A stretch of DNA of 64,000 bases, from contig OZ024742.1 in assembly GCA_964016885.1 (NCBI GenBank), positions 109,864,001-109,928,000 on the forward strand, written 5' to 3'. The position numbers were made by a program, and so were the translations under genes. This stretch comes from Eledone cirrhosa (lineage: Eukaryota). This document shows, in pieces, positions 1,119 through 52,986 of the stretch; position 1 is the first letter of the stretch; each line of letters begins with the position of its first letter. A model generated the notes under the pieces. That model ran no database searches, was not told the DNA's origin, and saw nothing but the letters and a program-made list of their open reading frames with translations.

Positions 1119-1702
1119 GTTTTTTCTTCTCTCGTTATAAAGAGATTAATAAATGCAAACGTGTAAATTCACTACTTGTGAGGACACCACACCTATGTTT
1201 TTATTCGCCCAAGGGGTTTATATGGACTACTTTGAGAAGCTCTGCTCTTGTGACACTCATCATTGGAACCGACGAAGGTCCAACACACGCACGCGCGAAC
1301 ATATACACATACAACACACGCATATACACATATTTACAGCTGTTGTTTAAAAATGTAGCTACGTTCTGTGTAGATCTCGGCTTTGAAACACTATATAATA
1401 CAATGAAGCTGTTATTATATCACAGCGAGTCATGCAACTGTTTTGTGGTCACAGGGGACAAAATGGTGAATACGTTTGGTGAGTTATTTTTAGAAATATT
1501 AAAAGGCTGACCACTAATTATTGAAAGAATGTATAGAAATTATGTCCGGACTGATTTGTGTAGAGGAGTTGGGAAGAAGGATATAGGGGCTGAGAGGAAA
1601 GGCAGAGGGGTTGGGAGGAAGGGTATAGAGGTTGGGTGAAAGGGTAGAGGGGTTGGAAGGAGGGGTAGAGGGAGAGAGAGTGAAGATTATAGATAGTGTG
1701 CA

Positions 1703-7891: not shown

Positions 7892-7979
<88 letters not shown>

Positions 7980-8259
7980 CGAAACATAAGTCAATTGCAT
8001 GAACTCATAATCCTTTATTTACTGCTTTATTTGTATGAAATTGTAAATAATACAAAAGTATTAGAAGAGGGGGAAATAACTCACCGAACGAGTTCTGGGG
8101 CCCCAGTGACCACATTTTTCAAATTAGAGACTTGAAACCTCGTCTATTCGCTTCCTTGGCACTTTTTACATAGGTGTGTAAATTTTCATGTCAGTCCGAC
8201 GACGTCTACTACCATTTAACCCTGCACATCTGAATTTCAACCACCACCCATTTCACAAA

Positions 8260-8305
<46 letters not shown>

Positions 8306-8967
8306 TACATGGGAAGTAATAGATAGGGCCGCTTCATATAAACCACTGAATAAAGGAATAAATTGTGTAACCTCTGTCTTCTAGAGACCCGCACTATAAT
8401 CTATTCGAATCTAGACCTCCTAAATAGAAAATCAGAGGTTTTTTTCGATGTGCCAGCACTACCACCGACACTCTTTCCATAGCTTTAAACCTAGCTGCTA
8501 GTATATAACAATGTCGGGTCCGAATTCCTCACCACCATTAACACTTCACCTCTAGGTCTTATCACCATATAATTACCCCCATAGCATCACTCTCTATGAT
8601 CAGCTCATTCCTCTCCCTATCTCCTATTTATCTCAAACCTTATACTCTACAATAACTATTAGAAATAAACATAAAATTACCACCATTTAATATAACTACT
8701 ATAGCTTACTTATATTATATTCAGTAATGGATAGATAATAATACAATGAGACCTTTAATGTATTATAGGAAAATAAATTATATTTATAATTAAATATATA
8801 AATTAATAGCATTATAAATAAGGGATTCACTTATAACATAATGTAATGTATATTAATAACACAAGAGATTTGACTAATTGGACCTGTAAACAACTATACA
8901 TTTTTTCTATAGATTACTTATAGTTTATATTATATTTTATTCAGTAATGGATAGATAACAATATAAT

Positions 8968-9076
8968 TGTTTCTACTTTTGGCACAAGGCAGTACATTAC
9001 TGGTACTTTATTTTATCGACCCCGTAAGGATGAAAGGCAAAGTTAACCTCGGCGGGATTTGAACTCAGATCATAAA
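8968..9076 (-). mobile_element. tRNA-derived SINE family A, 5'-truncated, with 19-bp TSD
   Basis: TSD GGATAGATAACAATATAAT at 8949-8967 and 9077-9095; sits in the second unit of a local ~220-bp duplication (8718-9255). Confidence 0.85.
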
Positions 9077-9812
9077 GGATAGATAACAATATAATGAGAC
9101 CTTTAATGTATTATAGGAGAATAGACTGTATTTAAAATTAAATATAAATAAATAACATTATATAAAAGAAAAGGGATTCACTTGTAACACAATGGAATGT
9201 ATATTAGCACAAAGAATTTAACTCACTGAAACTGTAAACAACTATACATTTTTTCCATATTTCCTTCTTTTTACTTTCATATACAATTTAATCGCTAGTT
9301 AACATTAGTTTCGCATTAGTTCCCCTTAATATGAATCTCAAACTCACTTCCGGAAATTAAACCGTTGGAAGAATCGCTATAGAACAACTCGAACCAAGGA
9401 TAACAATATAATAGGACCAATATACAATCCATAGCTGTAACTAACTAAAAACATTCACTAAAATAGAACATAACCAATGTAATGGAAAAGATAGCAATAG
9501 CAGTGATACTCTCAACACAGACACAATTGAACATAACGGAAACAATCATCGCTTTACATCCACCATAAACTCGTAATATTAATACACAAACACCTTTGCC
9601 TGCCTGATATGCTTGTAAACCTATGTTATTTTTTATGTGATACTTTTGCCATACAGTAATTATATATGCCTAGTACCATTATATATGCCTAGTTCCATTC
9701 CTATATATGCTTAACGCATTTGCACTCTCTACACGCTTGCATATGTACTGCTGGTGTCCTCGTTTTACGAGTAACTTTTCTCCTTAATGCTTCTTTCATT
9801 ATTATACTTTTC

Positions 9813-9995
9813 GGTGGATTGGCAGTATCGGTAGAGGGTCGGACGTCATGCTTTGACGCATAGAGTTACCGCCCTTTCCATTCTGAGTTCAAATCCCGCC
9901 GAGGTTAACTTTGCCTTTCATCCTTACGGGGTCGATAAAATAAAGTACCAGTAATGTACTGGGTAATTGCTGGCCTTGTGCCAAAAGTAGAAACA
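9813..9995 (+). mobile_element. tRNA-derived SINE family A, full length, 15-bp TSD. Other copies approx. 10420-10592, 18610-18735(-), 23217-23336, 38560-38617, 38784-38898, 38920-39090, 49763-49940, 58890-58962(-)
   Basis: A box TGGCAGTATCGG, B box GAGTTCAAATCC, core GAGGTTAACTTTGCCTTTCATCC; TSD ATTATTATACTTTTC at 9798-9812 and 9996-10010. Confidence 0.88.
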
Positions 9996-10592
9996 ATTAT
10001 TATACTTTTCCCTTGTCGCATGCATTCCACTCTATGCTTTTTGATTTTAATTATTGTACAATTCTCTTGTAATATATGTCGCATCCATTCCACTCACTAG
10101 ATATGAAACCGTTGTTGACAGCATTAATATCCATGTATCTACATGATTGTTCAGTTGAATAGGTTAACTATATGTACAAACATTGCTAGTGCTCCGATGA
10201 TTCCAAACGAAAGTTTGGAAGAAACGATTGACAGCAATAAAATGATTTGAACATAACTTTTATTATTGTGTAATTTATATTCCTGCTCTGTAAAACATCT
10301 GATGTATTTACATTGAGCTATTTTTCTTACTGGTAATAAGGTACTAATAAATTACTGACCTTTCCTGTTTATAGTTGTATATAGTGTATACATAACTATA
10401 AATAGTATCATTATTATTATCGGTAGAGAGTCGGACACCATGCTTTGAAGCATAGAGTTACGTCCCTTTATGATCTGAATTCAAATCCCGCCGAGGTTAA
10501 CTTTGCCTTTCATCCTTACGGGGTCGATAAAATAAAGTACCAGTAATGTACTGGGTAATTGCTGGCCTTGTGCCTAATATAGAAACAATTAT

Positions 10593-10624
<32 letters not shown>

Positions 10625-10625
<1 letters not shown>

Positions 10626-10810
10626 ACGAAGGAAATGTGGTAAGGAACCAGGTGGACCATAACGCACCAAAGTACTCAATACTTGAGGTAGTAGAGTGGG
10701 TAATAGGAACCAGTAAGACCCCGACAGCTGAGCTCAAGCCGTTTCGACGGCTAATTCAGAATTAGCCGTCGAAACGGCTTGAGCTCAGCTGTCGGGGTCT
10801 TACTGGTTCC

Positions 10811-10841: not shown

Positions 10842-12568
10842 GTTATATAGTAAGGTGTATTATTGGTTGTGTACTATTGGGTTTGCCCTCGATAGCCGGG
10901 ATTATATCCACTATGCACCTGCTACATTTATCCCTATTCCCTCTACCCGACCCTCGTTCCATTTTACGTTCAGCGGTTGTTTTATCAGTTCTACAATTAA
11001 GGTTACAATTAGAGTTTCCGCTGGCATTACGGTGCTCAGACTCTGTGTTTGTACCTGGGTGATTGTTTCCATTGGTACCATCGACATTGGGACTAGGAGG
11101 CAATACAACATGAAGTCTATATTGATCCTCCCTCGCATTCCGCCTTCTGTTAACTAAATGTCACTATTTTGGCCTAAGCTATCGCAGGCAATGTTGCTAC
11201 TACTATTTAATGGACGTTTGAATGAGATTCTTTCGCTATGCCCCGCCCGTTCCAGGGCGCTACTGTAGTAATTCGAGATCCTATCAAAGGTATCTTCATT
11301 GGAAGATAGTCCTGAAATTCTACTAGAGACGCTTTTGGTAATACCGTTAGTGACTATTGTAGGGTGGTTCGATTTTGCGTTGACATAATTTAAATTCTCG
11401 TTGGGTTTGTGGTAGGGTTGGAAGAGTCCTGAATTGAGGTTAATTGTAACATCTAGAAAATTAACTATCTTCAGGTTTTCTTCAAACACTATACTTAGGT
11501 CTATGTTGTTGAAGAATTTGCTTAGTTTTTTCCTCACCCTCTCTACCATACTATTATTATGGAACGACACAGTAAACAAAACGTCGTCACGGTAAGCGCC
11601 ACCTCCCAAGTGGGGCATTTCCACTCCGAGACAGTCGATGAAGTAAAGGCCCACCAGATCCGTCACCTGGGCCGAGTCCGTGGATCCCATGGTGATGTCG
11701 AAATCGTCCGGCCAATCTTTCCTGGTCCACAAGTCACCGTTGAACTCAATTAAGGTTTTCCTAGCTAGGATAATAATGTTAATTTCTTCAGATGTAAGGT
11801 CGGTGTGTAAGCTAGCAAAGTTTAGGGCCTTACCTAGAAGAGTTGGAGAGATCGAAGAGTAGTAGTTAGAGATATTGAACTGTATAAACTTAGTGCTATT
11901 CTTATTCTACGATTTCTCAAACTAGTTAATTACCTCACTAGTTCCTGACCATAATTTAAGCTTCAATCTCCTAACTAGAGTGGGGATTATTTTATCAAGG
12001 ATGTTTTTACTCACGATTCCTATGTCCGACTTCGAAGGGGGCTATCAGTCTGACAAGTCTTGGTGATTCAAAGTTTAATTTGTGGTCTTTCAATAAAATC
12101 CTCGGAATTCTAGGATGAAAGGGTTCAGTTTTATCTTCAATACCCAATTTAGTCATGACGCTATTGGCCTCCGTGTTGATTAAATCTAGGTTGGCCCGTG
12201 TAGTTTTTTTTTTGTAGCTTTTTCTAATTTCTCTGATTATCAAGTCGTCATAGGTTACTCTATCCATATCGTACAGGTTGTTAGTTTTATCTGCGTGCAC
12301 CAGAATGCTGGTCGAGTTCCTTAGTTTTCCTAGATCACCGTTCAGTCTTCTTAAGTAGATTTTTCCCCTGAGTGGGTTTTTCCTAAACTTAAGGTTGAAC
12401 ACTATGTTAGACATTTCAGTCTCGAATTCCTCCAGGTACTTATTGTGCGGTGGGTTTCTTCTGGATTTGAATTTTCCCTCGATGCCCCCCCCCCCCGGGT
12501 GTTTTGTTGGTGTTCCTCTGTCGAAGTGGAAGGCCTTCCAACGCATTCTACGGACAAAGGAGTCCGAT

Positions 12569-12572
<4 letters not shown>
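10840..12572 (-). pseudogene. Degraded Penelope-like element RT fragment (different clade from the 32 kb element; no endonuclease retained)
   Basis: MRWKAFHF, ADKTNNLY, LKDHK..F, TMGSTDSAQVTDLVGLY, AYRDD, VNFLDVT, YHKP..LNYVNAKSNHP; stops and frameshifts; (TA)n at both ends. Confidence 0.88.
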
Positions 12573-12641: not shown

Positions 12642-12645
<4 letters not shown>

Positions 12646-14339
12646 GCCTTCTTCACTACCTCTTCTACGGCCTCGATATGAATACCCCCTCCGCCTCCGT
12701 GGTATTTTCTTCGTGGTTATAAGAGGCTTAGCTCTGTTTCTCGACCGTTATATCGCGTGACTATCTCCCCCTCCGCCTTTTGGGATTCTTTCTCACGTCG
12801 TGTAGACGCGTTCTTGAGACTAGTAAAATGAGGTATCCTCTTGATAAGTCGGCAGACCTCGCAGGGACTCTATATCTTTGATATATTGTTTTTGTTTATG
12901 CCACGAAACTACGTAGTCGAGGAATTTAGGAACAGTTTAGGTATGATACATTTTATTACTAATTATATCTAAATGTTTCTTCTCTCTTCATAATGTATTT
13001 TTAACTCTGATACTGGTTCAGTCTAGTTCAAACTGAATTGGTCTGTCCCAGTCATTCATTGAGCAACATCGGTGAAGTTGGCACCCTTAACTCACAGTTG
13101 GGTGCGGATGCATTCATGTATATATGTGTGTGTCCGCATGTATCTGTGTGTTTCTAAATATATTAATAACTCCCTCTGGTCGAGCAATCTTTGAAGTGTG
13201 GGGACAACTGGAAAGCTTCCATTACTCATACTTCTCGCCTTCTTCACTACCTCTTCTACGGCCTCGATATGAATACCCCCTCCGCCTCCGTGGTATTTTC
13301 TTCGTGGTTATAAGAGGCTTAGCTCTGTTTCTCGACCGTTATATCGCGTGACTATCTCCCCCTCCGCCTTTTGGGATTCTTTCTCACGTCGTGTAGACGC
13401 GTTCTTGAGACTAGTAAAATGAGGTATCCTCTTGATAAGTCGGCAGACCTCGCAGGGACTCTATATCTTTGATATATTGTTTTTGTTTATGCCACGAAAC
13501 TACGTAGTCGAGGAATTTAGGAACAGTTTAGGTATGATACATTTTATTACTAATTATATCTAAATGTTTCTTCTCTCTTCATAATGTATTTTTAACTCTG
13601 ATACTGGTTCAGTCTAGTTCAAACTGAATTGGTCTGTCCCAGTCATTCATTGAGCAACATCGGTGAAGTTGGCACCCTTAACTCACAGTTGGGTGCGGAT
13701 GCATTCATGTATATATGTGTGTGTCCGCATGTATCTGTGTGTTTCTAAATATATTAATAACTCCCTCTGGTCGAGCAATCTTTGAAGTGTGGGGACAACT
13801 GGAAAGCTTCCATTACTCATACTTCTCGCCTTCTTCACTACCTCTTCTACGGCCTCGATATGAATACCCCCTCCGCCTCCGTGGTATTTTCTTCGTGGTT
13901 ATAAGAGGCTTAGCTCTGTTTCTCGACCGTTATATCGCGTGACTATCTCCCCCTCCGCCTTTTGGGATTCTTTCTCACGTCGTGTAGACGCGTTCTTGAG
14001 ACTAGTAAAATGAGGTATCCTCTTGATAAGTCGGCAGACCTCGCAGGGACTCTATATCTTTGATATATTGTTTTTGTTTATGCCACGAAACTACGTAGTC
14101 GAGGAATTTAGGAACAGTTTAGGTATGATACATTTTATTACTAATTATATCTAAATGTTTCTTCTCTCTTCATAATGTATTTTTAACTCTGATACTGGTT
14201 CAGTCTAGTTCAAACTGAATTGGTCTGTCCCAGTCATTCATTGAGCAACATCGGTGAAGTTGGCACCCTTAACTCACAGTTGGGTGCGGATGCATTCATG
14301 TATATATGTGTGTGTCCGCATGTATCTGTGTGTTTCTAA

Positions 14340-14341
<2 letters not shown>
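12642..14341 (+). repeat. 591-bp tandem array (~2.9 near-identical units), one HHR per unit
   Basis: Exact 591-bp period (e.g. 13124/13715); (TA)n flanks. Confidence 0.95.
12836..12923 (+). ncRNA. Type I HHR, U3-A8 core variant (copies 13427-13514, 14018-14105)
   Basis: Helix I TCCTC/GAGGA; core TTGATAA; helix II base GTCGGCA/TGCCAC with long loop; GAAA; palindrome CTACGTAG; GUC site. Confidence 0.8.
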
Positions 14342-16542: not shown

Positions 16543-19500
16543 CCACTTTGGGTCATAACTGAACAATATTGTGCACATAGAGAGTTTCAGGTGTTTTTGT
16601 GGTAGACCTGCAGTCACACTTGCAAGTTTGTCTCCTCTCTCTGCACCACCGATATTATCCTTGTGAAAGGTAAAGGCCGACACAACTTAGCATCAGTGTC
16701 GTCGTAACTCATACCCAATCCAGGGCCTTCGCACTCCTGTTGGATGAACTCCACCCCTTAGTTGACCTCCACTGCTTTCTGTTTGGTTCATATCAAGGTG
16801 TAACCATACTCAGCACGCTTGGCTAAATACATGTTGGTGAGGCTATTTAACCCATATTTGGGGTGGATGGCTAATAAAATGAGTTTTCTCATTTTTATAT
16901 GTTTTCAAATACACTTACACTTCGTCTCGATCAGAGACAATATTGTTTTTTTTATTTAACTTTATCATAGCTATGATTAGCTTTCTATTTAGGACAGACA
17001 TGAAGGCATGAGGTCCATTATCCAATTATTCTTTCGTCCTATCTATACTGTTTGTTTTATCATACACACACACACATCATATCAGCAGAAAGATTTATTA
17101 TTCTGTTACACGATCCAGCATTTTAAAAGGCACTCCCTTAATTCGTGCGAAACCATTTTGCTGGTTTGAGAGCTGATGAGAATGAAGATGTGTCTGTGTA
17201 GACTTGTCTTATGCATCACCTTGTTCCTTCTTCCGGTCACTTCTATGCGCCAACATACTTCTCCTTGTCCTCCTCCACTTTCAATCCACACACACACACA
17301 GCAAAGGAAATGTTTTCCCATGGCCACCAAGTAAATAACCTGCGACCTTGCAAGGAAGACAATAGATAAATTTCCCCTGATAGTTGGATTTACGGCATCA
17401 TTTGTATTCTAGGGCCATCCGTTATCTATCAAAAATAATTAGCGGTCATTGAAAATAGTCTGGCCTGTGGTCCTAACTCACACAGTCATCTGCCTCTTCT
17501 CCTAGACAACACAGCTTCCTTGCCACTGCGATTTTACTACTACCTCTACTGGTACATACTGTCTGATTACAACTTGTCATTTTTTAATCGAACATCGCAT
17601 ATTAAACAAAGCACAACACAGAAGCCTTCTGAACACTATATTCATTTGTGAAACTTTATATTTACGATTTGAAGTAATCATATTTTTTTCCTTTTTGTTG
17701 GAATGAAGTAAAGTTATAAATTCAACCAGAATTATTGGTGTATCTTGTGTTTATCATCCTCTTCCACAACAACCAAATATTTCGCTTCATATAAACAAAC
17801 ATACACACATACATTCCTATGCATATACATACACAGACACACAAACGCATACACACAAATACATATACACGCACATATAGACACATATATACATGTGTGA
17901 GACCACGCCCAGTGTATCCCCTACGGCCAACTTGAACTAGAGGCCTATTTACACAACACCCTAGCGTGGATATTTAGTTTCCTGTGGATCAGTAGAGAGA
18001 AACTCTGAAGCCCCCCCCCCCCCCCCCCCTCTCTATCTCTTTGGAAGAAATCGGCTGTGTTCAGGTCTGGAGAAGGAGGGACTCGGCCAGGTTTCACTAC
18101 TCAAGAAACGACGATGTGTTACGTCGGCACCCCTACAACTCAACCAAGATTTAAGGGCGCGTGATAGTTCAAGAAAGGGCCTATCAAAATTGCAGGGCGT
18201 CTTATAAGCTCGTGCACCTCCTAAGCCGGTAAATACACCCTTTTTATATCAACCCGGATAAAACCAGCTCTGGTTCTATGAAACGAAACGTCCAATTTTA
18301 AATGGTTCCTGTTTACATTAAAATCTTCCAGCATAATTTGATATAAGAACCATATGTTAAACTATTATCTTAGTATTGACATAGTTAATAATTTTAGTAA
18401 ATCCTCCAAGTTTTTCATTAATTAATTAACACAGTATTTCATTAGAAATATCTCACGAAAGGGATAAGTTCAACTTAGTGTGTTTCTTGTAATTTTTTTA
18501 GTGCATTTCATTTAACTCGGTAGCTTTTTCTTATTGAAGAATCTCTTCGGTTCCATTTCTTTTTATCTAGATTTTAAGGGGGTGGGGGTGAGGAGGAGGA
18601 ATTAGTAATAATTGTTTCTGATTTAGGCACAAGGCCAACAATTTGGGGGAGGGAAAAGTCAATTAAATCGACCCCAGTGCGTTACTGGTATTTTATTATA
18701 TGGACCCAGTAAAGATGGAAGGCAAAGCTGAACTTAACAAGGCACTTATATGGCGTTATAAATCCATTACAACGAAAAAACATTCATAGGCACCATAATC
18801 AGTGGCCGATTAATGATGGGTGGGAAGAGATTATGAGTTGGCTGCAGCCAAGAAGAAGCCCTACAATATTACTGTTTTGTGGTTATCAAGAATATCTTAC
18901 TAATGTGGATTCATGTGATTTGTTAATTCAAATGTTTATAGTATGTTTACTAATGAACAGGTCTTTGTGAACAATTGTAGTATTAGAGTAAACACTTAAA
19001 TTTAAGATGTGATGCAATCATAATACTGCTTTGTACTTTTAATGAATGTCTTGCTACTATGGTTTTTAAGAATTAAAGAAGCTTAACTTCTCTTCATGGT
19101 AATGATGTTTGCAGTCATTGTGAGGGCTCTAATTATTGGGAGTATCTGACATAATTGGTTGGAATATTGCCAGAGAAACCTTATCTCGAAAGCATTGTCA
19201 ATGGAGTGAGTTAGTTAGTAGGTCGCTGTATCAGACTTTAAAACAATAACAAAGACCAATAAGGACAAAGCTATGTTACGACACATTTAATCACTGGGGG
19301 AAAATAAAAAGAACTTCGTCAACTTTCTAAAACAAAGTTAACTACAAAGAGAGAAAGAAAAACAAAGATTTCATTAGATTTTTCTGTATTTCTTTGATTC
19401 TTTCTTCTTTTAACACAAAAACAAACATGCACTCACATGAATATAAGATTAACTTTTTATACCAACCCTCGTTCTATAATGAAAAACTGTTTGTTATATA

Positions 19501-20681: not shown

Positions 20682-21045
20682 TCATCCCTTGAATCGTAAG
20701 AATGTTTTGCAAATTTTGAAGGTGCCAGCTATCGTAGCCATTTGTAGACTATGAATTAGGGAGCTGCGCTCTTTGTCCGCAAATCCAAGTTCAGTTATAC
20801 ATTGGTCCAAGCGGGTTGGTATATAACCCGTAGCTCCAATAATGATGGGTATGAAGCTAAAGGTGTATCTTGGATACTGGATTTGTAAACTCCTCATCAA
20901 TGATCCGTATATGTCCTCCTTCTCCTGTATCTTTTTGACAACGTTTACAATAAGTGGGCAGCTGATCTCCACAACAGAACACGTTTTCAATGTGTGGTCC
21001 CAAACAACAATATCAGGCCGGTTGTGCTTTAATTTGGTGGCAGTT
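20682..21045 (-). pseudogene. C-terminal restriction-like endonuclease (RLE) fragment of a non-LTR retrotransposon (R4/NeSL-like), 5'-truncated
   Basis: HNRPDIVVWD...VVEISCP...K..IY..L...IPIIIGATG (PD-(D/E)XK-type RLE signature); short 3'UTR ends in (TACA)/(TA)n at ~20617. Confidence 0.82.
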
Positions 21046-21815
21046 TTTCCGTTTATCGTTTTCGGTGCACCCGGCCGATTAACCCACTCGAGATGCAAAT
21101 TGGGCTACTCAGCCGTTAATATGCATAAGGTAAATATATACGTTCAACAATCTGGCAGGAAGGTATACGTTGCTGACGATAGCTAATAAGCTTGAAACTA
21201 GTACAGCGTTCCTTTGTCAGTATTGAACAAACGAGCAACGATGGTTGCTGGACACTACGGCTTAATACGGGATGTTTGTTTACAAACACACCGAGAATTA
21301 TAATAACTGTTCGGTGAATCCATACGTACATATATATATGTGTGCATGTATGTATATATATATATATATATATACATACTACTGTACGTCTGTATACATA
21401 TATGTATGTACGTGTACATACTTATATTTAAGTAACAGCCGTACTAAGAGTGGGAAATGAAATTTCGTTTCATTTTTTCCGTTTATCGTTTTCGGTGCAC
21501 CCGGCCGATTAACCCACTCGATATGCAAATTGGGCTACTCAGTCGTTAATATGCATAAGGTAAATATATACGTTCAACAATCTGGCAGGAAGGTATACGT
21601 TGCTGACGATAGCTAATAAGCTTGAAACTAGTACAGCGTTCCTTTGTCAGTATTGAACAAACGAGCAACGATGGTTGCTGGACACTACGGCTTAATACGG
21701 GATGTTTGTTTACAAACACACCGAGAATTATAATAACTGTTCGGTGAATCCATATGTACATATATATATGTGTGCATGTATGTATATATATATATACATA
21801 CTACTGTACGTCTGT

Positions 21816-21886: not shown

Positions 21887-21887
<1 letters not shown>

Positions 21888-22520
21888 GATATTAACAAAT
21901 GGAAACTATATTTATAAAACCATATTTATTTCATTATACATATTTCAATATTTCAAGGACACCAAGTTAAATTATGGTGTGCTTTCATCAGATAAAATAT
22001 AATATAGATCAGTTTTATAAATAAATATTGACATACCCTTAAAAAATGCAACCATTACTGTTGGAAGCTCCCGGATAGCTTCCAACAGTAATGGTTGCAT
22101 TTTTTAAGGGTATGTCAATATTTATTTATAAAACTGATCTATATTATATTTTATCTGATGAAAGCACACCATAATTTAACTTGGTGTCCTTGAAATATGT
22201 ATAATGAAATAAATATGGTTTTATAAATATAGTTTCCATTTGTTAATATCGTATTTTTACTCCAAATATTTGTTGAGTGCTTTATATCAGTTATAAAAAT
22301 ATTTGCTTGTTGTATCCCAACAATTTAAATAGAACTTTTACATATATATATATATATACAATATTAAATAAATGGAAAACTATATTTATAAAACCATATT
22401 TATTTCATTATATATATTTCGGGGATATCATATTAACAATATGCTATGCCTTCATCAGACAAAATACAATATAAACAGTTTTATAGATAAATATATTCGA
22501 CATACCGTAATAAACATCAA
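21887..22520. mobile_element. Fold-back insert (21887-22252, centre ~22072) plus a diverged third copy (22358-22520); HHR-bearing
   Basis: ~180-bp inverted arms; (TA)n flank. Confidence 0.85.
22148..22210 (+). ncRNA. Type I HHR (diverged relative at 22402-22465 on -)
   Basis: ATTTTAT-CTGATGA-AAG..CACC/GGTG..CTT-GAAA-TATGTA-TA-ATGAAAT. Confidence 0.78.
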
Positions 22521-22801: not shown

Positions 22802-23521
22802 GATATTACATCATCAGCTAATTAGCTCCACCACTGAATATAGTGTTTTTGTAGGCGCCATTACGCTACACACACACACAAATATATATTTATATATATA
22901 ATATATTCGAAGACCCCCTTCGGATACGAATGACCATGTGATTTGCACCTAAAAGGCTTCCCCTCCGAGGCACAAGTCCGGGCAAGGTTGTTTGTATATT
23001 GTCAAAGCTTTCCTCTCCACGCCACCGATGGTGTCCAAGGGAAAGGCTATGGCCGATACAGCTTGGCACCAGTGACATCGCAACTCATTTCTACAGCTGA
23101 GTAAACTGGAGCAACGTGAAATAAAGTGTCTTGCTCAAGGACACAACGCATCACCCGGTTCGAGAATCGAACACACAACCTTTCGATTGCAAGCTCTAGC
23201 CACTAAGCCATGCGCCTTCTGAGTTCAAATTCAGCCGAGGTTAACTTTGCCTTTCATCCTTACGAGGTCGATAAAATAAAGTACCAGTAATACACTGGGA
23301 TAATTGCTGGCCTTGTGTCAAAAGTAGAAGCAATTATATTACAGTAGATTATATGATATATTAAGTCAAGTCAGTGATCTGTGTCAGCAGACAAGACTCA
23401 TGTCTGCTGACCCTGTGAAAATGGATGAAACTGCAGAGGAAAAGAGGACTCTGACTTAACCTTTAAAATGTATCTATCTTTACAGTGGTATTAAGTATTC
23501 GAAGTCACGACCACCAGCAAC

Positions 23522-25088: not shown

Positions 25089-29547
<4,459 letters not shown>

Positions 29548-29552
29548 TTTTT

Positions 29553-30328
29553 AGAACAGAGGTGTAACACACGAGTTGTGATATATTGGTAAAAGGAAAA
29601 GAAAATGCTGACAAATTGTTCCCAGTGAAAAATAGTTTAATTAAGAATAAGTAAAAATTAGTAATAAGTATTGGTTAGTATTCAGTTTTAGCTTTAAGTT
29701 TTTACCGGTTACGCATTTCTAATGCTTTTCAAAAATAATTTTGAGATAGAGCGTCCGTGATGTTTGCTCTGATCTGATTAGTTTTGGAAATTCTACCTGT
29801 TTTATGTGAAAAAAGTGGCTCCAGAGGTATTAAAATAAGTTTCGCGCCAATTTGTGTTGCAAAAATTCTTGTGGTCAAAACAATTTTGATTGTTCGGTAG
29901 AGGTCACGTGAATGTTAAAAATTGATTTTGCGCCAAATGTAGGTTTGTCGAAGAGTGTCCTTTTTCGCCTGATTGAGAAGTCACTGAAAAATAAGTCTTT
30001 TAAGACAAATATGTGTATGTGTGTGTGTGTGTAGTAAAGAGGTTCATTGTTGTGATAATGGTCAGTAGGGATGTGTGTGTGAATTGCAGTCATGTTGAAA
30101 GGTCAACAGTTCAGGTGCCTATTAAGACAAATGTGTGTGTGTGTGTGTGTAGCAGAATTTTGGCGCAAAACAATTTTTAACATTCACGTGACCTCTACCG
30201 ACCAATCAAAATTGTTTTGACCACAAGAATTTTTGCAACACGAATTGGCGCGAAACTTATTTTAATACCTCTGGAGCCACTTTTTTCACATAAAACAGGT
30301 AGAATTTCCAAAACTAATCAGATCAGAG
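29553..30328. mobile_element. Diverged second fold-back of the same PLE 3' region
   Basis: 29553-30150 resembles 25121-25790; 30158-30328 is an inverted copy of 29765-29937. Confidence 0.85.
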
Positions 30329-31143: not shown

Positions 31144-31325
31144 TAGAAAAGGCTTCTACAGGACTGTTTCATTCGGGAGAAATCATCAGGGAGCCCTGAT
31201 GATTTCTGCCGAATGAAACAGTTCTAGTCCTGTAGAAGCCTTTTCTATATTAAATATTTATACTCTGCTTTGTATTGAGTACCTTACTTACTGTGGTTAC
31301 CCCCGATTGACCCCGGGATAAACTT
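31144..31325. mobile_element. Small fold-back insert with HHR core (31196-31236); helix I not resolvable
   Basis: Palindrome centred ~31192; CTGATGA-TTTC tgcc GAAT-GAAA-CAG..CTG-TA. Confidence 0.6.
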
Positions 31326-31676
31326 ATATATATATATAGTAGTACCACCCTACATAAATTCCTCAATTTAAGATTGACCTGTAGTATCGAATTTCATACT
31401 ATAAACCCCAATTGAATATATATCTGACCAGGAATGCTTTTTGTGAAAATCAGTCATATGGAACTATTGTCATCTTGCCTGATGGTTTGAAATTTACAAC
31501 ACCACCTGCCTCTTTGAGGTCAAATACCAACCCTACTAGCATCTACAAACTGACCAATGAGAATTAAGATTATTCCTGCTGACAACATTAAATTATTCTT
31601 AACAAACTCATATGTCCCAAGGCTCTGATACAATCAACACCATAAACACAGAGCTGGCATATCTAAGAACTGACTA

Positions 31677-31732
31677 ACTGCCTGATGAGGTCATAGCCAC
31701 TCAATGGCTATCATCGAAATATATATAGCAGT
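31677..31732 (+). ncRNA. Type I HHR near the 3' end of a (TA)n-flanked insert (31338-31778)
   Basis: ACTGC-CTGATGA-..ATAGCCA ctcaa TGGCTAT..-GAAA-TATATA-TA-GCAGT. Confidence 0.85.
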
Positions 31733-31773
31733 AAATAAAGGATTATGAGTTGATGCAATTGACTTATGTTTCG

Positions 31774-31891
<118 letters not shown>

Positions 31892-32029
31892 TATAGGATC
31901 CGGTAAGACCCCGACGGCTGAGCTCAGCCGTCGGGGTCTTACCGGTTCCTATTACCCACTCTACTACCCCAAGTATTGAGTACTTTGGTGCGTTATGGTC
32001 CACCTGGTTCCTTACCACATTTCCTTCGT

Positions 32030-32281: not shown

Positions 32282-32405
32282 CATACATATATATATATAT
32301 AAAGCACAAGTGAAGCCATTTTTTCTTCCCCCCTGTCTTAATATACCTAACTGTACCAAGGATTACACACATTTTCCAATATTCTATCCCCTTGTACAAG
32401 ACAGA

Positions 32406-35400
32406 ATGGCTAACACACATTCAAAATCCTCTACTGAATCCCTCAAATCGGAGACACTACTACAGGAAATATCAGAAAAACTCACCATAATAATAGATAA
32501 ATATGATTCCCTTACGAATGCCGTACAAGAAATGGAACAACAAACACGCAGCTATAGGGAAAAACTTGATTCACTAATTACAGACCGACAAAAACAAGAA
32601 CAAACCTTTTCCCCTGAAATAGCTACACATGAACAGAACTCCATCACCAATAATGCATTCAAAGAATGGAATGAACTGAATCTAGAAAAAGAAGCCTACA
32701 GAAAAAGAAACCAAATGAAAAACATTTGGAACCAACTATTAAATCAAAGAAAACAGGCATACTGGAAAGCCTTGAGGAGTAAAAACCTAGCAGACACATA
32801 CGAAATATGGCGTAGCAAGGAACCAGTTATCCTCCCGAGAAAATTCCGAATTAAAGAAATACCATCGGAATCAAAGGAAAAAACTGCAACAAGACTAAAT
32901 CTAGCACTCCAAACACTTGAGACCGAAATCACCCTACTCCGCCTAAGAGTGCCAAAATTCAAAGAGAAATTTGAAAAATGCGACACCACCATCAAAGAGG
33001 AAATAAACAAAAGAAGCAGCGGCAATGTACGTGAAAAACTCCTTAACCTATGGCAGACAGATACAACTAGAGAGGAGTTAAAATCAAAGAAAATCTCGGA
33101 ATCAAGAACTCAATGGCTTCAAGAATATGAAGATAACTATGGGAAAGACCAAATAAAACCCAGAAAACAAACCCATAGGAAACCCCAGAACTCAGGAAAA
33201 TACAACAACACAAGAAATGAAGCACCCACACACAATAAACCAACAACAACCAGATATCGGGTAACCCCAAACACACAACTACATACAGACCCAATACTCA
33301 ACACCAGAACCAGATACAACCACTGCCATGACACCAAGAACAATTACCGGAGACAAAATCAAAGACACATGAATACTGAACGAAACAACAGAAGAACCAG
33401 ACCCCCATACAGCAACGACCACGCAAGAGTCTATCGCCCAACCAGTGACCGGCATGAAGTTCCGACGGGCCAAAGGTTTCACCACAACAGAAACACCCCT
33501 ATCCCAAATGGCACCCATTTTTTAGGACTAGGGGCCTCGCACCAAATGAAAGAAAAAAAGAAAAAAAGCACCACCTTTCAAGTGGCACCTGACGAGAAAG
33601 AACCAATCGAACCAAAAATAATCAATATATCAGCCAAGAAATTAACACAACCAGAAATACAACTGTTAGAAAATGGACTGAAGTTCACTCCCACTCCGAA
33701 AGCAGATACAGCCGATGTTATAAAAGACACAGAAGAATACTGTCGAAAATTACGCTTAGGAGAATTCTTCCAGGGTGTACAATACGAGGAAGAATCACTG
33801 GTGAAAAACAAAAAGAACTTCACACCCCCGCTAAATAGAGATAAATACCTGGAGGAGTACATAACCTGCCTTCGCCGATCAGCACGTACAAATACGGCCG
33901 AGACGAAACACAAACGCAACATCCCTACAGACCAACTACTAGCATTGAACAAGCTACAAAGGGATTCCTCAATAATAATAAAAGAAGCGGACAAAGGTGG
34001 AGCAATCGTCATCATGGACATAAACCACTACAAAGATATGGTTCTAGCACACTTGAATGACGAAAACTTCTACAGGAAAATCACTAAAAACGAAGAAAGG
34101 AAATCGAGGAACCAAATAGGCAAACTAACAACAAAGTACCAAAACAACCTAACACCAAAAGAAGTAGATTACCTAACCAACTTCGAAATGAAAACCAGCA
34201 ATTTCTATGGATTACCAAAAATTCACAAATCCATAGAAATCCAAAACAACATAAAAGGGAAAAATACATCATACATCGAAGCACCAAAACCGACAGACTT
34301 AAAATTACGCCCCATTATTGCTGGCCCAGCCTCAAGCACACAACGTCTAAGCAACCTATTAGACATCATACTCAAACCCCTATGTAAAAAAGTTCCAAGC
34401 TACATCAGAGATGATATGGAATTCCTTAACTATATCCCCCAAAAAGTACACCAGGATACAATCCTAGTCAGTTTTGATGTAATAAGCCTGTACACTAACA
34501 TCCCACACGACCTAGGGATTGAAGCTGTGGACTTCTGGATTACAAAACACTCAAGTCACATTTCAGAAAGATTCCCCAAAGAATTCATCTTGGAAGGACT
34601 TAAATTAGTATTGGAAAACAACCACTTCCTCTTTGACAACGAACTTTATCTACAAATAAAAGGAACAGCCATGGGTACCAAAGTGGCCCCTACATATGCA
34701 ACGCTCGTTATGGGTCACTTAGAGGCAAAATTATATTCCCAACTACAGATAACATTCAGTCACGACTTCGCCTTCTACATTAATAAAAACTGGAAACGTT
34801 ACCTAGATGACTGCTTCATCTTCTGGAACAGAAGCCAAACAGACCTACAAAAATTTTATTCGATCTTAAACAGGCTTCATGAAGCTATACAATTCACTAT
34901 GGAATGTAACGAAAAGGAACTGCCCTTTCTAGATATCCTCATCATTAAAGAAGGGGGAAATATCATAACGGACCTATTTTGCAAACCCACTGACACACAC
35001 CAATACTTAAATTTCCGGTCAGCACACCCCTCGCATACGAAAAGGAACATTCCCTTCAACATGGCAAGGCGCATCTGCACTATAGCAACACACCCCGTAC
35101 TACAAGAAAAAAGATTATGTATCATGAAAAACTTCCTTAAAAAACAAGAATACCCGATGAAACTCATCAACGCAGCCATCTCCAAGGCTAAGAACATCCC
35201 AATAACAACACTGAGAAAACCAAACCCACAACATAAAAAAGAAAACCCTGCTATCTCTTTTGTCATCACTCACAACCCAGGGAACGTCAACATTGTAAAC
35301 ACTGTTAAGCAGTATCTCCCGATTCTACAGCAATCTACCAAAATGAATGCGCTCTTAAAAAACACACAGATAATTTATAGCAGACGCCAAGCACCCAACC

Positions 35401-35849
35401 TTAAAAAACTAATTACCAAGGCAAAATTTACGACCAACATGGAATCAATGCAAGTGACGAAATGCGGGGACCCTAGATGTGGAACCTGTGAACTCATCGA
35501 AGAGGGCAAACAGTTGTCCTTCAAAAACCATGATAATTTCAAGGTCAATGCAAACATGAACTGCAAAACGAAAAACCTAATATATTGCGCAACATGTCCA
35601 CAGTGTAAAGAGTATTACATTGGGGAAACCGGAACGGGACTACATGATAGAGTCCGGGTACATAAACAACACATTAAAGACCCCACAGTCAGAAATACCA
35701 CATGTAGCGCACACTTTGCATCATGCGGGAAGGGAAAATTCACAATCTTCCCTTTCTTCAAGATATGGTCGGATAACGAACATTTCCGCAGATATAAAGA
35801 AGAATTCTTCATTGAAAAATTTAAACCACTACTGAACACGAAAAATTGA
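32406..35849 (+). CDS. PLE polyprotein, 1147 aa: N-terminal coiled-coil-like region + RT + Cys linker + GIY-YIG endonuclease (Neptune-like)
   Basis: Uninterrupted ORF from ATG 32406; [87 protein letters not shown]. Confidence 0.95.
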
Positions 35850-35923
35850 ATTAACACTCGGAGGTAAAATTCCATTTCACTAACACCCCCCCCTTCTTAT
35901 GTGTACACATGAATATATGTATG

Positions 35924-35996
<73 letters not shown>

Positions 35997-36052
35997 ATAT
36001 GTATGTGTATGTATGTGTGTATGTATGTGTTTGTATGTGTATGTGTATGTGT

Positions 36053-36099
<47 letters not shown>

Positions 36100-36101
36100 T
36101 A

Positions 36102-36141
<40 letters not shown>

Positions 36142-36236
36142 TATATATGTGTGTGTATATATATGTATATGTGTGTATGTGTCTGTATGTGTTGATGTGT
36201 ATATATATATATATATATATGTATGTGTCTGTATGC

Positions 36237-36297
<61 letters not shown>

Positions 36298-37008
36298 TGT
36301 GTATGTGTGTGTGTGTATGCATGTATGTGTGAACGGATGTATATATACGGACATATGTATGTGTGTGTGTGTGTGTGTATGTGTGTGTATGTGTGTGTGT
36401 ATGTGTATATATGTATATTTAGTTATGTATCTTTATGTGTGTATATATATGTATATGTATGTATATATATATACCCATGTGGAGGTATGAGTACATATTC
36501 GTGTGTGTACGTATGTGTATATGAGTTTTTATGTGTCTTTATATGTTTTTATGTATGTATGTAGATGTATATGTACATGGGTGTGTGATTGATGGTGTGT
36601 GCCTATATATTCCTACATATGCCCGTGTGTGTATGTACGTATATACGCACATATGTGTGTGTTGAACAAAGGACTAATTTTGGGATGGACGTAGAAAAAT
36701 TCTTCAGAAAAAAATAATTGTTTACAAGCTTGGCAGGTGCGGTTTGCCTATGACCATTTTCTAATACAAAGGAATACTAAAAGCTTTTTCCCCTGAATAA
36801 AGGAATTTTTTCGAGAATGACCGGGGCAGGCCGCGCTTGCTACATTTCTCCCCACCCAACCCTACTCACTGTCTCAACTCATTACTGCTATTAACATTTT
36901 TTCAACACACCTACACCCATACACTTATTAAAGGGGGAGAAAAAAAACCCACCGCACCACAGACATGTTAAATCCCTATATATAGAACAACACACCACAT
37001 ACACATCA

Positions 37009-37094
37009 GTTTGACAAGCGCACCTCAGCGTGAAAGGTCTTTCTAAAAACGAAACAATACCTCCTACGTTAACCAAGAACTCCTAAGACCTAAC
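37009..37094 (+). ncRNA. Candidate U3-A8 HHR in the PLE 3' region (weak helix I)
   Basis: TTGACAA-GCGC acctca GCGT-GAAA-GGTCTT...AAGACC-TA; only 2 bp of helix I are evident. Confidence 0.55.
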
Positions 37095-37272
37095 CAACAA
37101 CCAACGACTCAATTTATTAAAAAAAATTTTTTTTTTTTTTTCTAATCCGGAAAAAAATTATTTTTGGATTTTGTGAAGAAAATAAATTTGTTGAAAGCAC
37201 AAGTGAAGCCATTTTTTCTTCCCCCCTGTCTTAATATACCTAACTGTACCAAGGATTACACACATTTTCCAA

Positions 37273-37501: not shown

Positions 37502-38245
<744 letters not shown>

Positions 38246-38510: not shown

Positions 38511-39163
38511 ACAATTGTTTACAGATGCTATACAAAATGCTACACCTCAAGTTGTATTATATTAAAATAAAGTACCAGTAATTGCTGGCCTTGTGCCAAA
38601 AAGTAGAAACAATTATATTCTTTAATGTCATGAGAAACTGAATATTATAATGAAATATACCTGAGATTGAGATTTTGATGGATAAATACCATGGTACAAG
38701 TTTGCCTTCACCCCTCCATAATTAAAAAAGAAGTTACATGGACATGCCTGTATATTCTTGGGTGGTATTATATATGCAAGGATCTGAGTTCAAATCCCGC
38801 CGAGGTTAACTTTGCCTTTCATCCTTACGGGGTCGATAAAATAAAGTACCAGTAATGTACTGGATAATTGATGGTCTTGTGCCAAAAGTAGAAACAATAT
38901 ATATGCAAGGATAAGAGTTGTAGATTGGCAGAATCGTTAGAGCATTGGACAAAATGCTTTTGCAGTGTTTGTTCCAAGTCTGAGTTCAAATCCTGCCGAG
39001 GTCATTTTTCATCTTTCCGGAGTCGATAAAATAAAGTATAGGAGTCTATACAATCGACTTTTCTCTCCCCACAAATTGCTGGCCTTCAGCTTAAATTATC
39101 AATCGATCTACATAAGGATGTAATTTATTCCATTTTTTTAGCTTCAGAAACAAGAGTGGTAGT

Positions 39164-41395: not shown

Positions 41396-42336
41396 TTAAG
41401 TGGGTGTCAGTGACTTGACGACCATGCGAGTACCGTTGCACTGCTTTGGTGGACGCAAGTTCCTTATTAGCATAATGGGACAGCCAACCCTAAGCTTAAT
41501 AATGTGAGGTGGGAGCCCTGGGGGCTCAAGGAGATTTAATAACTCAACCAGATAATTAACGATATCGTCGGGGTCTGATTTGAAGATGTGCTCTTTACCG
41601 GGAATCTTCTCAATCAGCTGCTCGTTAATAAAATTAACCATGGTATTTTTCGGAGCAAGGATGGCTCTTTCACTGAGCCAATCGAGGTTTTTAAAGTTAG
41701 ATGAGACATTAGGAAAAACTGCTTCCCAAAGGTCAGAAGGGCTGCTCACAATGTTGCACAGGGTGTCGATTGCTATGCCGCCCTTGTCATCTGCAGGGAT
41801 CTTGCTCTCACCAAGTGCTAAAATGTTCTGTGCTGCAGACATGTTGTCACCATGCAAATGAGCACGCATATTTGTGCTCAGGTACAAACTATTCACCTGG
41901 AGCCACAACATGGACGACTTAAGACAGGCATGCACTTCATCAGCTCTTGTCCATTTGGGGATGACAGGCAGCGTTTTCGGAAAATCCCCTGATAGCAGAA
42001 GGGTTACGCCACCCATAGGAGCCGTAGAATCCCTAATGTCTTTCCGGGCCTTGTCCAATGCCTCAAGGGCACCCTTGTGTTCCATTGTGCACTCATCCCA
42101 AACAATGAGGCAACATATTTTGAGAACCATAGCTTTGTGTGAACTCTTGCTGATATTGCATGTTGGTGTCTCAGTTTTTACTAAATCCAAAGGGAGTTTA
42201 AAGGTTGAATGTGCTGTGCTGCCTCCCGGCAGCAAAGTAGCAGCGATCCCGGACGATGCAACGGACAACGCAACTTTTTTCTCTTGACGAATCTTAGCGA
42301 GAATCAAATTCGTTACAAAAGTTTTTCCGGTACCCC
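41396..42336 (-). pseudogene. Helitron Pif1-family (SF1B) helicase fragment
   Basis: GGTGKTF Walker A, ASSGIAATLLPGG.TAHS.FK, IVWDE, GDF..LPV, RAILAP.N, LIRNL...CNGTR. Confidence 0.93.
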
Positions 42337-42509
42337 CATGATCGTTTTTTATTGGGGGATCAGGGTTATTTTTTTTTTTACCTTGAGGTATAACCAGTCA
42401 GTAGTTCCTTCAAAGGCTCTGGCGGTTCCATAAGAGGGGGTAAGGTGACCTTACCGTTTAAGCAGCACATTGCAGGTGGCTCCCCAGCCCACTTTGTAGC
42501 ATTGCAGAA

Positions 42510-43106
42510 TTAGCAATTGAAGCGCATCTCGCCTATATTTATGTCAGAGCACATCGAGTAATTAACGTTTTGCTCATACTTGAAAGCCCGTAGTTGCCAG
42601 TAAGGGCTGTTGGGGCTCGTCACACCGCGTGCAGCTTCTCGCCGTCGACTGTTACGCTTGAACGTAGAACATTGGTCGTGTGGTTGGTGAGAAGGTCTTG
42701 CAGCAATAGCAGAAGCAACATTTGCAATGCTAATCGACCGCCCGTCTGCATCTTCAGAAGCCATGGAAGTAGTCATAGCCGCAGCGTTCGTAGGAAGGCG
42801 AGCCGTCCGTTGTTTTAAACGTTCCAAAGACCTGGAAGCAGCATTAGTCGCATCGTTTCTAGCCAGGCGCTTCGACCTTTGTTCACGGCTCGCTGAAGCC
42901 CTGGAAGAAGCCTGGTATGATGCCATTTTGGCTAGGCGTGCGGTGCGCTGTTGGAAACTTTCAGCGGCTCGACATTCTGCTGAACATAAGGCTGTCTGTG
43001 AAAGTCTTGAAGCATTTTCCTCAGAGGACTCGTTTGCTATAGTAGCCTTTTGCGCCACTGCTGACGCGGTATGTCGACTGAGGCGACTTCTCTTTTTAGG
43101 TGGCAT
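42510..43106 (-). pseudogene. Helitron RepHel N-terminal Arg/Ala-rich repeat region, ending at the start of the Zn finger
   Basis: MPPKKRSRL start, RAAES..QR..RL repeats, AF.Y......IGEM..C. Confidence 0.75.
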
Positions 43107-43573
43107 TTTATGTCCAAAAGAAAGGGTGAAAGTTACTTCTACAGAAAAATTGACTTTGAAAGTCTACTGTCTGTTTATGAATATTGTTATTGTTGTTGTG
43201 ATACAAATGTTAGTAAGTAAATGGGTATCGAAAAATAAAGGGTGAAAGTTACTTCAACATAAAAATTGACTTTGAAAGTATAAGGCTGATAATTGAATGT
43301 AAAAAGATTGATAAGAAAGGCCTCCAAAATTTTTTTACAGGTATTTGTATGTATGTGTGTATTTTTATGTCGAAAAGAAAGGGTTAAAGTTACTTCTACA
43401 GAAAAATTTAGTTTGAAAGTGTAAGGCCGATGTGTGTGTAAATTAAGTGACAGGTATTTGTATGTATGTGTGTATATGTATGTATGTATGTGTGTATGAA
43501 AGTGTAAGGCCGATGTGTGTGTAAATTAAGTGACAGGTATTTGTATGTATGTGTGTATATGTATGTATGTGTG

Positions 43574-43605
<32 letters not shown>

Positions 43606-46600: not shown

Positions 46601-46708
46601 CAATGACGGCGTATTCATTTACCAGATAATGGGAGTTAAGACAGAGTTAAATCACCATAATTGTAATTTACATACATTTATGGTAATTTAACCCCGTCTT
46701 AACTACCA

Positions 46709-52585: not shown

Positions 52586-52624
<39 letters not shown>

Positions 52625-52986
52625 GATTTTGAGTTTATGTTGGTTGTATACCAATACCTCAGTATGCAGGCTGGAGCACTCGACGAAGTGCGCAGGTTGG
52701 TTTGGTTACTCCGGAGTAGTGTAAAATAAAGTTAAATAAAAGTCAAATGATTAAAATTTAGCTTCGTTTATTACTGCTATATATATTTCAGTGACAGCCA
52801 TCTTTGGCTGTGACCTCTTCAGGCAGTTTGAATTAGTATGGTATAGACAAGTACATACTTGTCTATACCATACTAATTCAAACTGCCTGAAGAGGTCACA
52901 GCCAAAGATGGCTGTCACTGAAATATATATAGCAGTAATAAACGAAGCTAAATTTTAATCATTTGACTTTTATTTAACTTTATTTT

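What the first reader, a model, noticed from the sequence alone, without database searches (positions are those of the whole stretch)
7975..8025. Short insert whose 5' end matches a predicted ribozyme cleavage site
Seen: 7975-8025 is the reverse complement of 31728-31778 with few substitutions. Homology stops at GCAGTAAATAAAGG, within 1 nt of the position just 3' of the predicted UA cleavage site of the HHR at 31677-31732; the other end abuts (TA)n in both copies. Inference: a self-cleaved 3' product was reverse transcribed and integrated, a genomic footprint of in vivo ribozyme activity.
Basis: partly seen in the sequence, partly recalled or inferred. Interest (0 to 1): 0.7.

Follow-up and report, generated by a model that had tools for sequence, protein, structure and literature searches.

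The report
Hybrid repeat joined at ribozyme cut
The 50-base match is real but is the end piece of a multi-copy hybrid repeat, not a lone insert; its join falls on the predicted cut site of a Penelope-type hammerhead ribozyme, so it likely records one self-cleavage event whose product was likely joined to another repeat and then copied.

Summary
Observation confirmed: 7976-8025 is the reverse complement of 31728-31777 (49 of 50 identical), and 31728 is the first base after the predicted cut of a well-formed minimal type I hammerhead. It is not a lone stub. The flank 8026-8262 is itself a multi-copy repeat ('B'), and two diverged contigs, one from another species label, carry the same B-tail join. 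7976-8266 is thus one (TA)n-flanked copy of a hybrid. The histogram test, run on public reads, shows no spike at the cut (at most about 4-8% of reads); the big 5' ends sit at ATAT runs. An ATAT run also ends exactly at the cut, so (TA)n-flanked stubs could not prove cleavage in this family. Best reading (0.4): one cleaved 3' product was joined to B (template jump or ligation) and the hybrid spread as a Penelope passenger, as with R2/U12 in Drosophila. Cleavage origin overall about 0.6; ordinary truncation 0.3. One founding event, so weak evidence. The scan noted cut-site footprints before in other Penelope families of this genome.

The parts
7976..8025 (-). 50-base 3' end ('tail') of hammerhead-bearing family A; equals the predicted 3' cleavage product up to the element's fixed end
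   Evidence: depth about 1,180 reads in X12
8026..8262 (.). Body of repeat B: non-coding, multi-copy, no hammerhead, origin and own orientation unidentified; right edge merges into the TA run near 8259-8266
   Evidence: 70-260 reads per bin in X12, 13-27 contigs at variant sites in X1; also in X4, X5; stops in all six frames; no hammerhead; no credible Rfam or tRNA hit
8025..8026 (-). B-tail junction, at the predicted ribozyme cut (0-1 base)
   Evidence: same join in X4 contig 12 and X5 contig 17 and as the X4 loose end at 31723
7896..7975 (.). (TA)40 target run at the tail end
8267..8302 (.). (TA)18 run at the other end of the unit
31339..31777 (+). 5'-truncated copy of family A, a Penelope-type hammerhead repeat between two TA runs (31325-31338, 31778-31805)
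   Evidence: depth ladder and 5' ends; an X4 contig runs on 159 bases upstream of 31340
31677..31732 (+). Minimal type I hammerhead: stem I 31677-81/31728-32, core 31682-88 and 31716-18, stem II 31689-99/31705-15 with one C-C mismatch, short palindromic stem III, predicted cut 31727|31728
31719..31727 (+). Nine-base alternating AT run (stem III) that ends exactly at the cut and matches the (TA)n target: the confounder
52724..52985 (.). Sister family C, two head-to-head arms, each with the homologous hammerhead plus a 54-base tail; shows that hammerhead and tail are an old linked module, so B is the derived partner

Best explanation
7976-8266 is one (TA)n-flanked copy of a hybrid repeat made of an unrelated body (B) and the last 50 bases of a Penelope-type element, and the hybrid was likely founded when a self-cleaved 3' fragment of that element's RNA was joined to B. 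Shown: the 50-base identity, the hammerhead motif, the join at the predicted cut, B being multi-copy, the same join in three diverged sequences. Inferred: family A RNA is cut by the hammerhead (probably as a dimer or with protein help); a Penelope reverse transcriptase primed in (TA)n copies the 50-base 3' product, runs off its 5' end and jumps to B RNA (or the 5'-OH end was first ligated to B RNA, RtcB-style); the 50-base tail is the signal that the Penelope protein recognises, so transcripts of the hybrid were then copied into TA microsatellites as a non-autonomous passenger, and this copy is 5'-truncated.
For: Join 0-1 base from the cut: 1.2% by chance if ends were uniform over the 168 bases 31610-31777, 0.5% over 438. 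The B side of the join is not a TA run, so TA-guided truncation explains it only with an extra substitution. B is multi-copy; X4 contig 12 (262 bases, depth 209.9, 15 other letters, 30 gaps) and X5 contig 17 (160 bases, depth 6, 6 other letters, 15 gaps) both start at 7997 and cross the join; at 8036-8055 they are 209.9 of 215.4 depth in X4 and all 6 in X5. Window, X4 and X5 copies share no private changes in the listed rows (table 3; 69 rows hidden). Family C keeps hammerhead plus a homologous tail that can fold into a hairpin at the same offset, so B is the recipient. Both ends of the unit sit in (TA)n and the tail end is the family's fixed end (X1 loose ends 7977/7978). Precedent: R2 reverse transcriptase jumping from the 5' end of R2 RNA to U12 snRNA, many copies from one jump (PMC3414825 section 8); RtcB joining to 5'-OH RNA (PMC6789731 abstract); non-autonomous Penelope-like elements sharing 3' ends (PMC8557442 passage).
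Against: It is one founding event. No spike at the cut among family A ends: none of the 12 raw-read loose-end rows shown lies at 31719-31728 (smallest shown 72 of about 1,660 reads in X12, 59 of about 1,595 in X13; 170 rows hidden), depth rises only 0.6% and 1.6% there; 1,014 X12 reads and 10 of 10 X1 contigs leaving at 8030 continue into the hammerhead. Depth of B does not fall with distance from the tail as a passenger's 5'-truncation ladder would; it is 2-8 times higher at 8146-8225 than next to the tail. One X4 contig (depth 5.5) has B without the tail. In X1 the join is not shown directly: only 1,509 of 19,998 summed depth has the B letter at 8027, and part of that may be family A variants. 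Minimal hammerheads cleave poorly in vitro (PMC4209133); in the anole element cleavage was not needed for insertion and no RNA reads ended at the cut (PMC11167929). Tail hairpins are not more stable than shuffles (z -1.0, -1.1, +0.3).
Confidence: 0.4

Rival explanations
1. Same hybrid family, but the join was made by ordinary 5' truncation or short-homology joining of an uncleaved family A cDNA in the AT-rich stem III; the match to the cut is coincidence.
For: 4 of the 6 distinct (TA)n-flanked 5' ends shown (31416, 31456, 31610, 31658; not 31582, 31619/20) lie within 1 base of the start of an ATAT run, 18 of 408 positions, binomial p 5e-5 (about 6e-4 by hand if all 33 run positions count; the rows are those the tool chose to show). 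The longest such run ends at the cut. B matches 4 of the last 5 bases of that run. No cut-site spike.
Against: B is not a TA run at the join; a join inside stem III needs a later substitution, while the 50-base tail otherwise equals the family majority; a uniform break hits the cut at about 1%.
Confidence: 0.3
2. One reading: a cleaved 50-base product was reverse transcribed straight into DNA at the edge of a B copy, and the composite was then spread passively by B's own movement or duplication, or inherited as one old locus.
For: B is more abundant away from the tail, like an independent family. A tail-less B contig exists in X4. The sequencing runs are not from the window's individual (no contig has the window's letter at 8131, 8149, 31492, 31606), so orthology of the three copies is not excluded. 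An earlier unchecked note describes such passive spread for another chimera in this genome (e1-8816641).
Against: The unit ends in (TA)n on both sides, as Penelope-type insertions here do. The tail-adjacent part of B is multi-copy in X1 (13 contigs, summed depth 8,363 at 8051) and no X1 loose-end row between 8031 and 8089 is shown (50 rows hidden). The X5 copy has none of the window copy's six changes in 8051-8131.
Confidence: 0.22
3. Two-armed insertion: both ends of the cut DNA primed, one on the cleaved 50-base RNA and one on B RNA read in the opposite direction, and the two cDNAs met at 8025|8026.
For: Head-to-head arms are common in this window (52724-52985 and others); B's own orientation is unknown; lead from unchecked notes e1-10315515 and e1-10324047.
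Against: A one-off joint would not recur in three diverged sequences. B shows no similarity to the longer-arm extension of family C or to 12 other element pieces in the window (best z 2.5 among 26 comparisons). Other B copies run 96-305 bases past 8262.
Confidence: 0.05
4. A lone 50-base stub in unique DNA (the finding read literally).
For: No second B copy in the window apart from a weak 46-base likeness at 1444-1489.
Against: B is covered by many variant contigs and reads in all 4 runs laid, and the join recurs.
Confidence: 0.03

Closest known systems
R2 elements with a U12 snRNA or tRNA 5' extension in Drosophila (Eickbush and Eickbush 2012, PMC3414825; abstract and section 8 read)
   Same: A foreign sequence joined at the 5' end of a ribozyme-processed retrotransposon RNA, explained by a template jump, with multiple copies from a single jump.
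   Different: R2 with an HDV-like ribozyme in 28S rDNA, whole element kept; here a Penelope-type hammerhead, only the 50 bases after the cut are kept, the ribozyme is lost, the partner is an unidentified repeat and the target is (TA)n.
Minimal type I hammerheads of Penelope-like elements (Cervera and de la Pena 2014, PMC4209133; parts 1-2 of 4 read)
   Same: Family A motif: conserved core, long stem II, 5-bp stem I, short palindromic stem III; dispersed single copies in truncated elements.
   Different: No unpaired base between core position 9 and stem II in my pairing; no linked ORF shown here; that paper states that in vivo evidence is absent.
Non-autonomous Chlamys elements such as MRC1 (Craig et al. 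2021, PMC8557442; passages, section 11, supplement searches)
   Same: Non-coding elements that share their 3' end with an autonomous Penelope-like family.
   Different: Green algae, hammerhead-less clade; no link to a ribozyme cut. The family A and B motifs searched were not found in the paper's supplement text (line breaks in its FASTA can hide matches).
U6/L1 chimeras made by RtcB ligation (Moldovan et al. 2019, PMC6789731; abstract and opening read)
   Same: A 5'-OH retroelement RNA end joined to another RNA and then retrotransposed; hammerhead cleavage gives a 5'-OH end (established chemistry, recalled).
   Different: L1 and U6; variable L1 joins; B is not shown to end in a cyclic phosphate.
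Twister-variant ribozymes of Perere-3 in Schistosoma (Liu et al. 2021, PMC8501958; abstract only)
   Same: Genomic insertion boundaries next to a ribozyme cut used as evidence of in vivo cleavage.
   Different: Twister at the 5' end of a LINE, with target duplications and tested activity; here one join, no readable target duplication, no assay.
Animal non-LTR retrozymes (PMC7229834 passages; bioRxiv 10.64898/2026.07.22.740005 part 1 of 5)
   Same: Non-coding repeats thought to be moved by Penelope enzymes.
   Different: Those are tandem units each with a hammerhead; the B hybrid has neither.

Membership tests
Minimal type I hammerhead (31677-31732) | Core boxes CUGANGA, GAAA and an NUH site in type I order | tested here: met
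   4 of 2000 shuffles give a hit
Minimal type I hammerhead (31677-31732) | Paired stems I and II, kept in relatives | tested here: met
   all named pairs kept in families A and C, one two-sided change; only two distinct homologous rows, shuffle control not significant
Minimal type I hammerhead (31677-31732) | Short palindromic stem III | tested here: met
   31719-31726 alternating AT
Minimal type I hammerhead (31677-31732) | Self-cleavage at 31727|31728 | not testable with these tools
   needs an assay; no RNA holder listed
Rfam canonical hammerhead families | Match to the covariance models | tested here: not met
Penelope-like element (family A) | Linked ORF with RT and GIY-YIG endonuclease | tested here: inconclusive
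   no ORF in 31339-31777 and no tblastn hit from two window PLE proteins; the upstream part could not be fetched
Penelope-like element (family A) | Hammerhead near a fixed 3' end, 5'-truncation ladder, (TA)n target | tested here: met
Penelope-like element (family A) | Optional 30-40 base 'tail' (second 3' end) | not tested
   both queries stopped at the short end; sister family C has a 107-base extension on one arm
Non-autonomous Penelope passenger (B hybrid) | 3' end shared with the partner family, no ORF | tested here: met
Non-autonomous Penelope passenger (B hybrid) | Several copies with the same join | tested here: met
   three diverged sequences (window, X4, X5); number of loci not established
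Non-autonomous Penelope passenger (B hybrid) | Copies at independent (TA)n sites with a 5'-truncation ladder | tested here: inconclusive
   true of this copy; depth does not fall away from the tail; flanks of other copies not seen
Non-LTR retrozyme (B hybrid) | Tandem units, each with a type I hammerhead | tested here: not met
   no hammerhead on either strand of 7976-8266, no tandem
SINE (B hybrid) | tRNA-, 5S- or 7SL-derived head | tested here: inconclusive
   none found, but B runs on beyond 8262 in other copies

The most novel reading that the evidence does not exclude
The Penelope hammerhead cuts in the germ line and releases a 50-base RNA that carries the element's copying signal; capture of that fragment by an unrelated RNA created a new ribozyme-less passenger family that has persisted across species. 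Hammerhead cleavage would then act as a generator of non-autonomous Penelope elements, and non-TA joins at the cut would be a confound-free record of in vivo cleavage.
Probability: 0.35. Interest if true: 0.7.

Novelty: new variant of a known kind. Interest (0 to 1): 0.4.

Why it matters
Whether the minimal hammerheads of animal Penelope-like elements cut in vivo, and what for, is open (PMC4209133; PMC8557442; PMC11167929). A join to foreign sequence exactly at the cut is better evidence than a (TA)n-flanked stub, because in this family TA-guided truncation mimics cleavage. If confirmed it also gives a route by which Penelope elements gain passengers. As it stands it is a single event in an unidentified repeat. 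I found no paper that reports such a join for a Penelope element in searches (open-licence library only).

Tried and rejected
No genome is held for the window, so no genome-wide copy histogram could be made; public runs were used instead. No RNA holder listed; run X4 is of unrecorded kind and was not treated as RNA. Exact-pattern scans found nothing in metagenome contigs or prokaryote genomes. Read piles at 31410, 31565, 31591-4, 31760, 7993, 8181 and 8233 coincide with AATT sites and were dropped as likely library cuts; X1 rows 31388, 31391, 31412, 31734 and X4 rows 31584, 31731 were dropped from the end count as diverged or other-family continuations. Rfam gave only microsatellite-driven noise; no tRNA. 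A minus-strand half hammerhead in the tail (GAAAC...GUC) is absent from family C and was rejected as chance. A supposed ORF end at 31380-31420 is interrupted by stops and was not used. B is not a decayed hammerhead, is not unusually structured (z +1.4) and is not related to 13 other element pieces in the window. One search used a mis-registered structure and is void; one search replaces it. Minimum-energy folds do not give the active hammerhead fold (z about -1.7). Motif searches in two papers' supplements found nothing; bioRxiv supplements were not seen. Look-ups of earlier notes by sequence, near place and one word set were empty.

Full report
Setting. The window is AT-rich animal DNA full of (TA)n runs and mobile elements. 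It holds an intact Penelope-like ORF with RT and GIY-YIG domains at 32406-35846, whose named relatives are mostly bivalve proteins, fragments that resemble Hydra-1 of Octopus bimaculoides at 11154-12570 (motifs compared by eye) and a tRNA-like SINE family. A mollusc, probably an octopus, is my inference. No genome is held.

Observation. 7976-8025 is the reverse complement of 31728-31777 at 49 of 50 bases. The hammerhead at 31677-31732 is a minimal type I motif with its predicted cut between 31727 and 31728 (4 of 2000 shuffles give a hit). A sister family, C, at 52724-52985 has the same motif with all named pairs kept and a homologous 54-base tail. Homology therefore starts on the first base of the predicted 3' product, with one base of ambiguity, or five if one mismatch is allowed. 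Both copies end at (TA)n on the other side.

Family A. Reads and contigs laid on 31340-31777 (2,958 reads of 12.5 million in X12, 2,662 of 12.8 million in X13, 1,151 contigs in X1, 28 in X4) show a high-copy family whose depth rises towards a fixed 3' end, as for a 5'-truncated Penelope-type element in TA microsatellites. No ORF could be linked to it, so it may be autonomous or not. The runs are not from the window's individual: no contig has the window's letter at 31492 or 31606.

The proposed test. The large 5' ends lie at 31610 (299 and 380 reads, 20-27% of local depth), 31416 (86 and 71, 20-23%) and 31658 (113 and 103, about 7%), all with (TA)n flanks. None of the 12 raw-read rows shown lies at 31719-31728; the smallest rows shown have 72 and 59 reads, about 4% of depth; 170 rows are hidden. 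Depth rises by 0.6% and 1.6% across the cut. In one search, 1,014 X12 reads leave the short copy at 8030 and continue into the hammerhead at 0.95 agreement, which allows at most about 8% TA-flanked stubs if agreement is per letter; 10 of 10 X1 contigs do the same; the 83 and 52 reads at 8024 and 8026 are a mutated hammerhead. So no spike is seen. The power is limited: RAD libraries sample few loci and cut at AATT inside the tail, and contigs drop rare forms.

The confound. Four of six distinct TA-flanked 5' ends shown sit at the start of an ATAT run (p 5e-5; selected rows). The family has six such runs and the longest, 31719-31727, is stem III and ends at the cut. A copy truncated there by pairing with the target would read (TA)n followed by the 3' product, exactly like a cleaved stub. 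Only joins to non-TA sequence can tell the two apart. The copy in question is such a join.

The flank. 8026-8262 is a repeat, here called B: 70-260 reads per bin in X12, 13-27 variant contigs per site in X1, and presence in X4 and in X5, which bears another species label. X4 contig 12 and X5 contig 17 both begin at 7997, 30 bases before the first difference between B and family A at 8027, and run across the join; they differ from the window by 15 letters plus 30 gaps and 6 letters plus 15 gaps. They make up 209.9 of 215.4 and 6 of 6 of the depth next to the join. B has no ORF, hammerhead, tRNA or Rfam match and no relative among 13 other element pieces. A likeness to DNA-transposon interiors is recalled and untested. 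Since hammerhead and tail are linked in both A and C while B's tail equals A's majority sequence, B received the tail from A.

Mechanism. Best reading (0.4): the hammerhead cut A RNA; the 50-base 3' product, which likely holds the signal for the Penelope protein, was primed in (TA)n, and the enzyme ran off its 5' end onto B RNA, or the 5'-OH end was ligated to B RNA first; the hybrid then spread as a passenger. A rough weighing (inference): an exact join has about 1% chance by uniform truncation and is expected after cleavage; with cleaved templates at 1-10% of the total this gives 0.4-0.9, and I take about 0.6 for a cleavage origin. That is split between spread by Penelope and passive spread or inheritance with B (0.22). 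Ordinary truncation gets 0.3. Against the passenger step, B's depth is higher away from the tail, one tail-less B contig exists, and the join is not directly shown to be multi-copy in X1.

Comparison. It works like the R2/U12 template jump of Drosophila ambigua (PMC3414825 section 8) and like non-autonomous Penelope-like elements with shared 3' ends (PMC8557442). It is not a retrozyme. In vivo cleavage of minimal Penelope hammerheads is unproven in the papers read: low activity in vitro (PMC4209133), protein-assisted but dispensable for insertion, with no RNA ends at the cut (PMC11167929). Papers seen: PMC8557442 passages, section 11, supplement searches; PMC11167929 and PMC4209133 parts 1-2 of 4; bioRxiv 10.64898/2026.07.22.740005 part 1 of 5; PMC3414825 abstract and section 8; PMC6789731 abstract and opening; PMC8501958 abstract; PMC7229834 and PMC13282606 passages (and one supplement search of the latter). 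Unchecked notes of this scan report minorities of copies ending at the cut in other Penelope families of this genome; I did not test them, and they may share the TA confound where stem III is alternating AT.

Verdict. Real feature, partly misread. New variant of a known kind; interest 0.4.

Noticed in passing
window 32302-37272 (+): Intact Penelope-like element: 1,147-aa ORF (32406-35846) with RT, C-terminal GIY-YIG and a CX4CXXC linker (Neptune-like by motif, unconfirmed), identical 78-base repeats at 32302-32379 and 37195-37272; my descriptor found no type I hammerhead in it.
   Followed up: partly
window 54012-57299 and 37555-38111: 468-base tandem units, each with a type I hammerhead motif (retrozyme-like), as two head-to-head arms over 99% alike, plus a dispersed copy; the arms have different outer ends.
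   Followed up: no
window 52617-52985: Palindromic two-armed copy of hammerhead family C; one arm carries a 107-base extension beyond the other's end.
   Followed up: partly
window 11154-12570 (-) and 12642-14340: Hydra-clade Penelope-like fragments (RWK and DKT motifs) next to a perfect 591-base tandem repeat.
   Followed up: no
window 21031-21750, 21887-22251, 46462-46508, 24535-24465: Further hammerhead-like descriptor hits: in a 430-base direct repeat, in a palindrome, and single ones.
   Followed up: no
window 8957-9078, 9813-10003, 10418-10595, 18606-18727, 23217-23340, 38563-39038, 49762-49940: tRNA-like SINE family with A- and B-box-like motifs, variably 5'-truncated, ending in ATT-rich repeats.
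   Followed up: partly
window 10626-10810 and 31896-32029: Two copies of a short TA-flanked element, each folded back into a palindrome of different length.
   Followed up: no
window 26615-28184 (-) with inverted copies 25125-29948: Second, broken Penelope-like element, 41% identical in protein to the intact one, with inverted repeats around it.
   Followed up: no
window 41396-48577: PIF1 helicase pieces and repeat-rich ORFs, likely decayed Helitron parts.
   Followed up: no
window 1444-1489 (-): Weak 46-base likeness to repeat B (score 45 against a maximum of 41 in 200 shuffles).
   Followed up: partly
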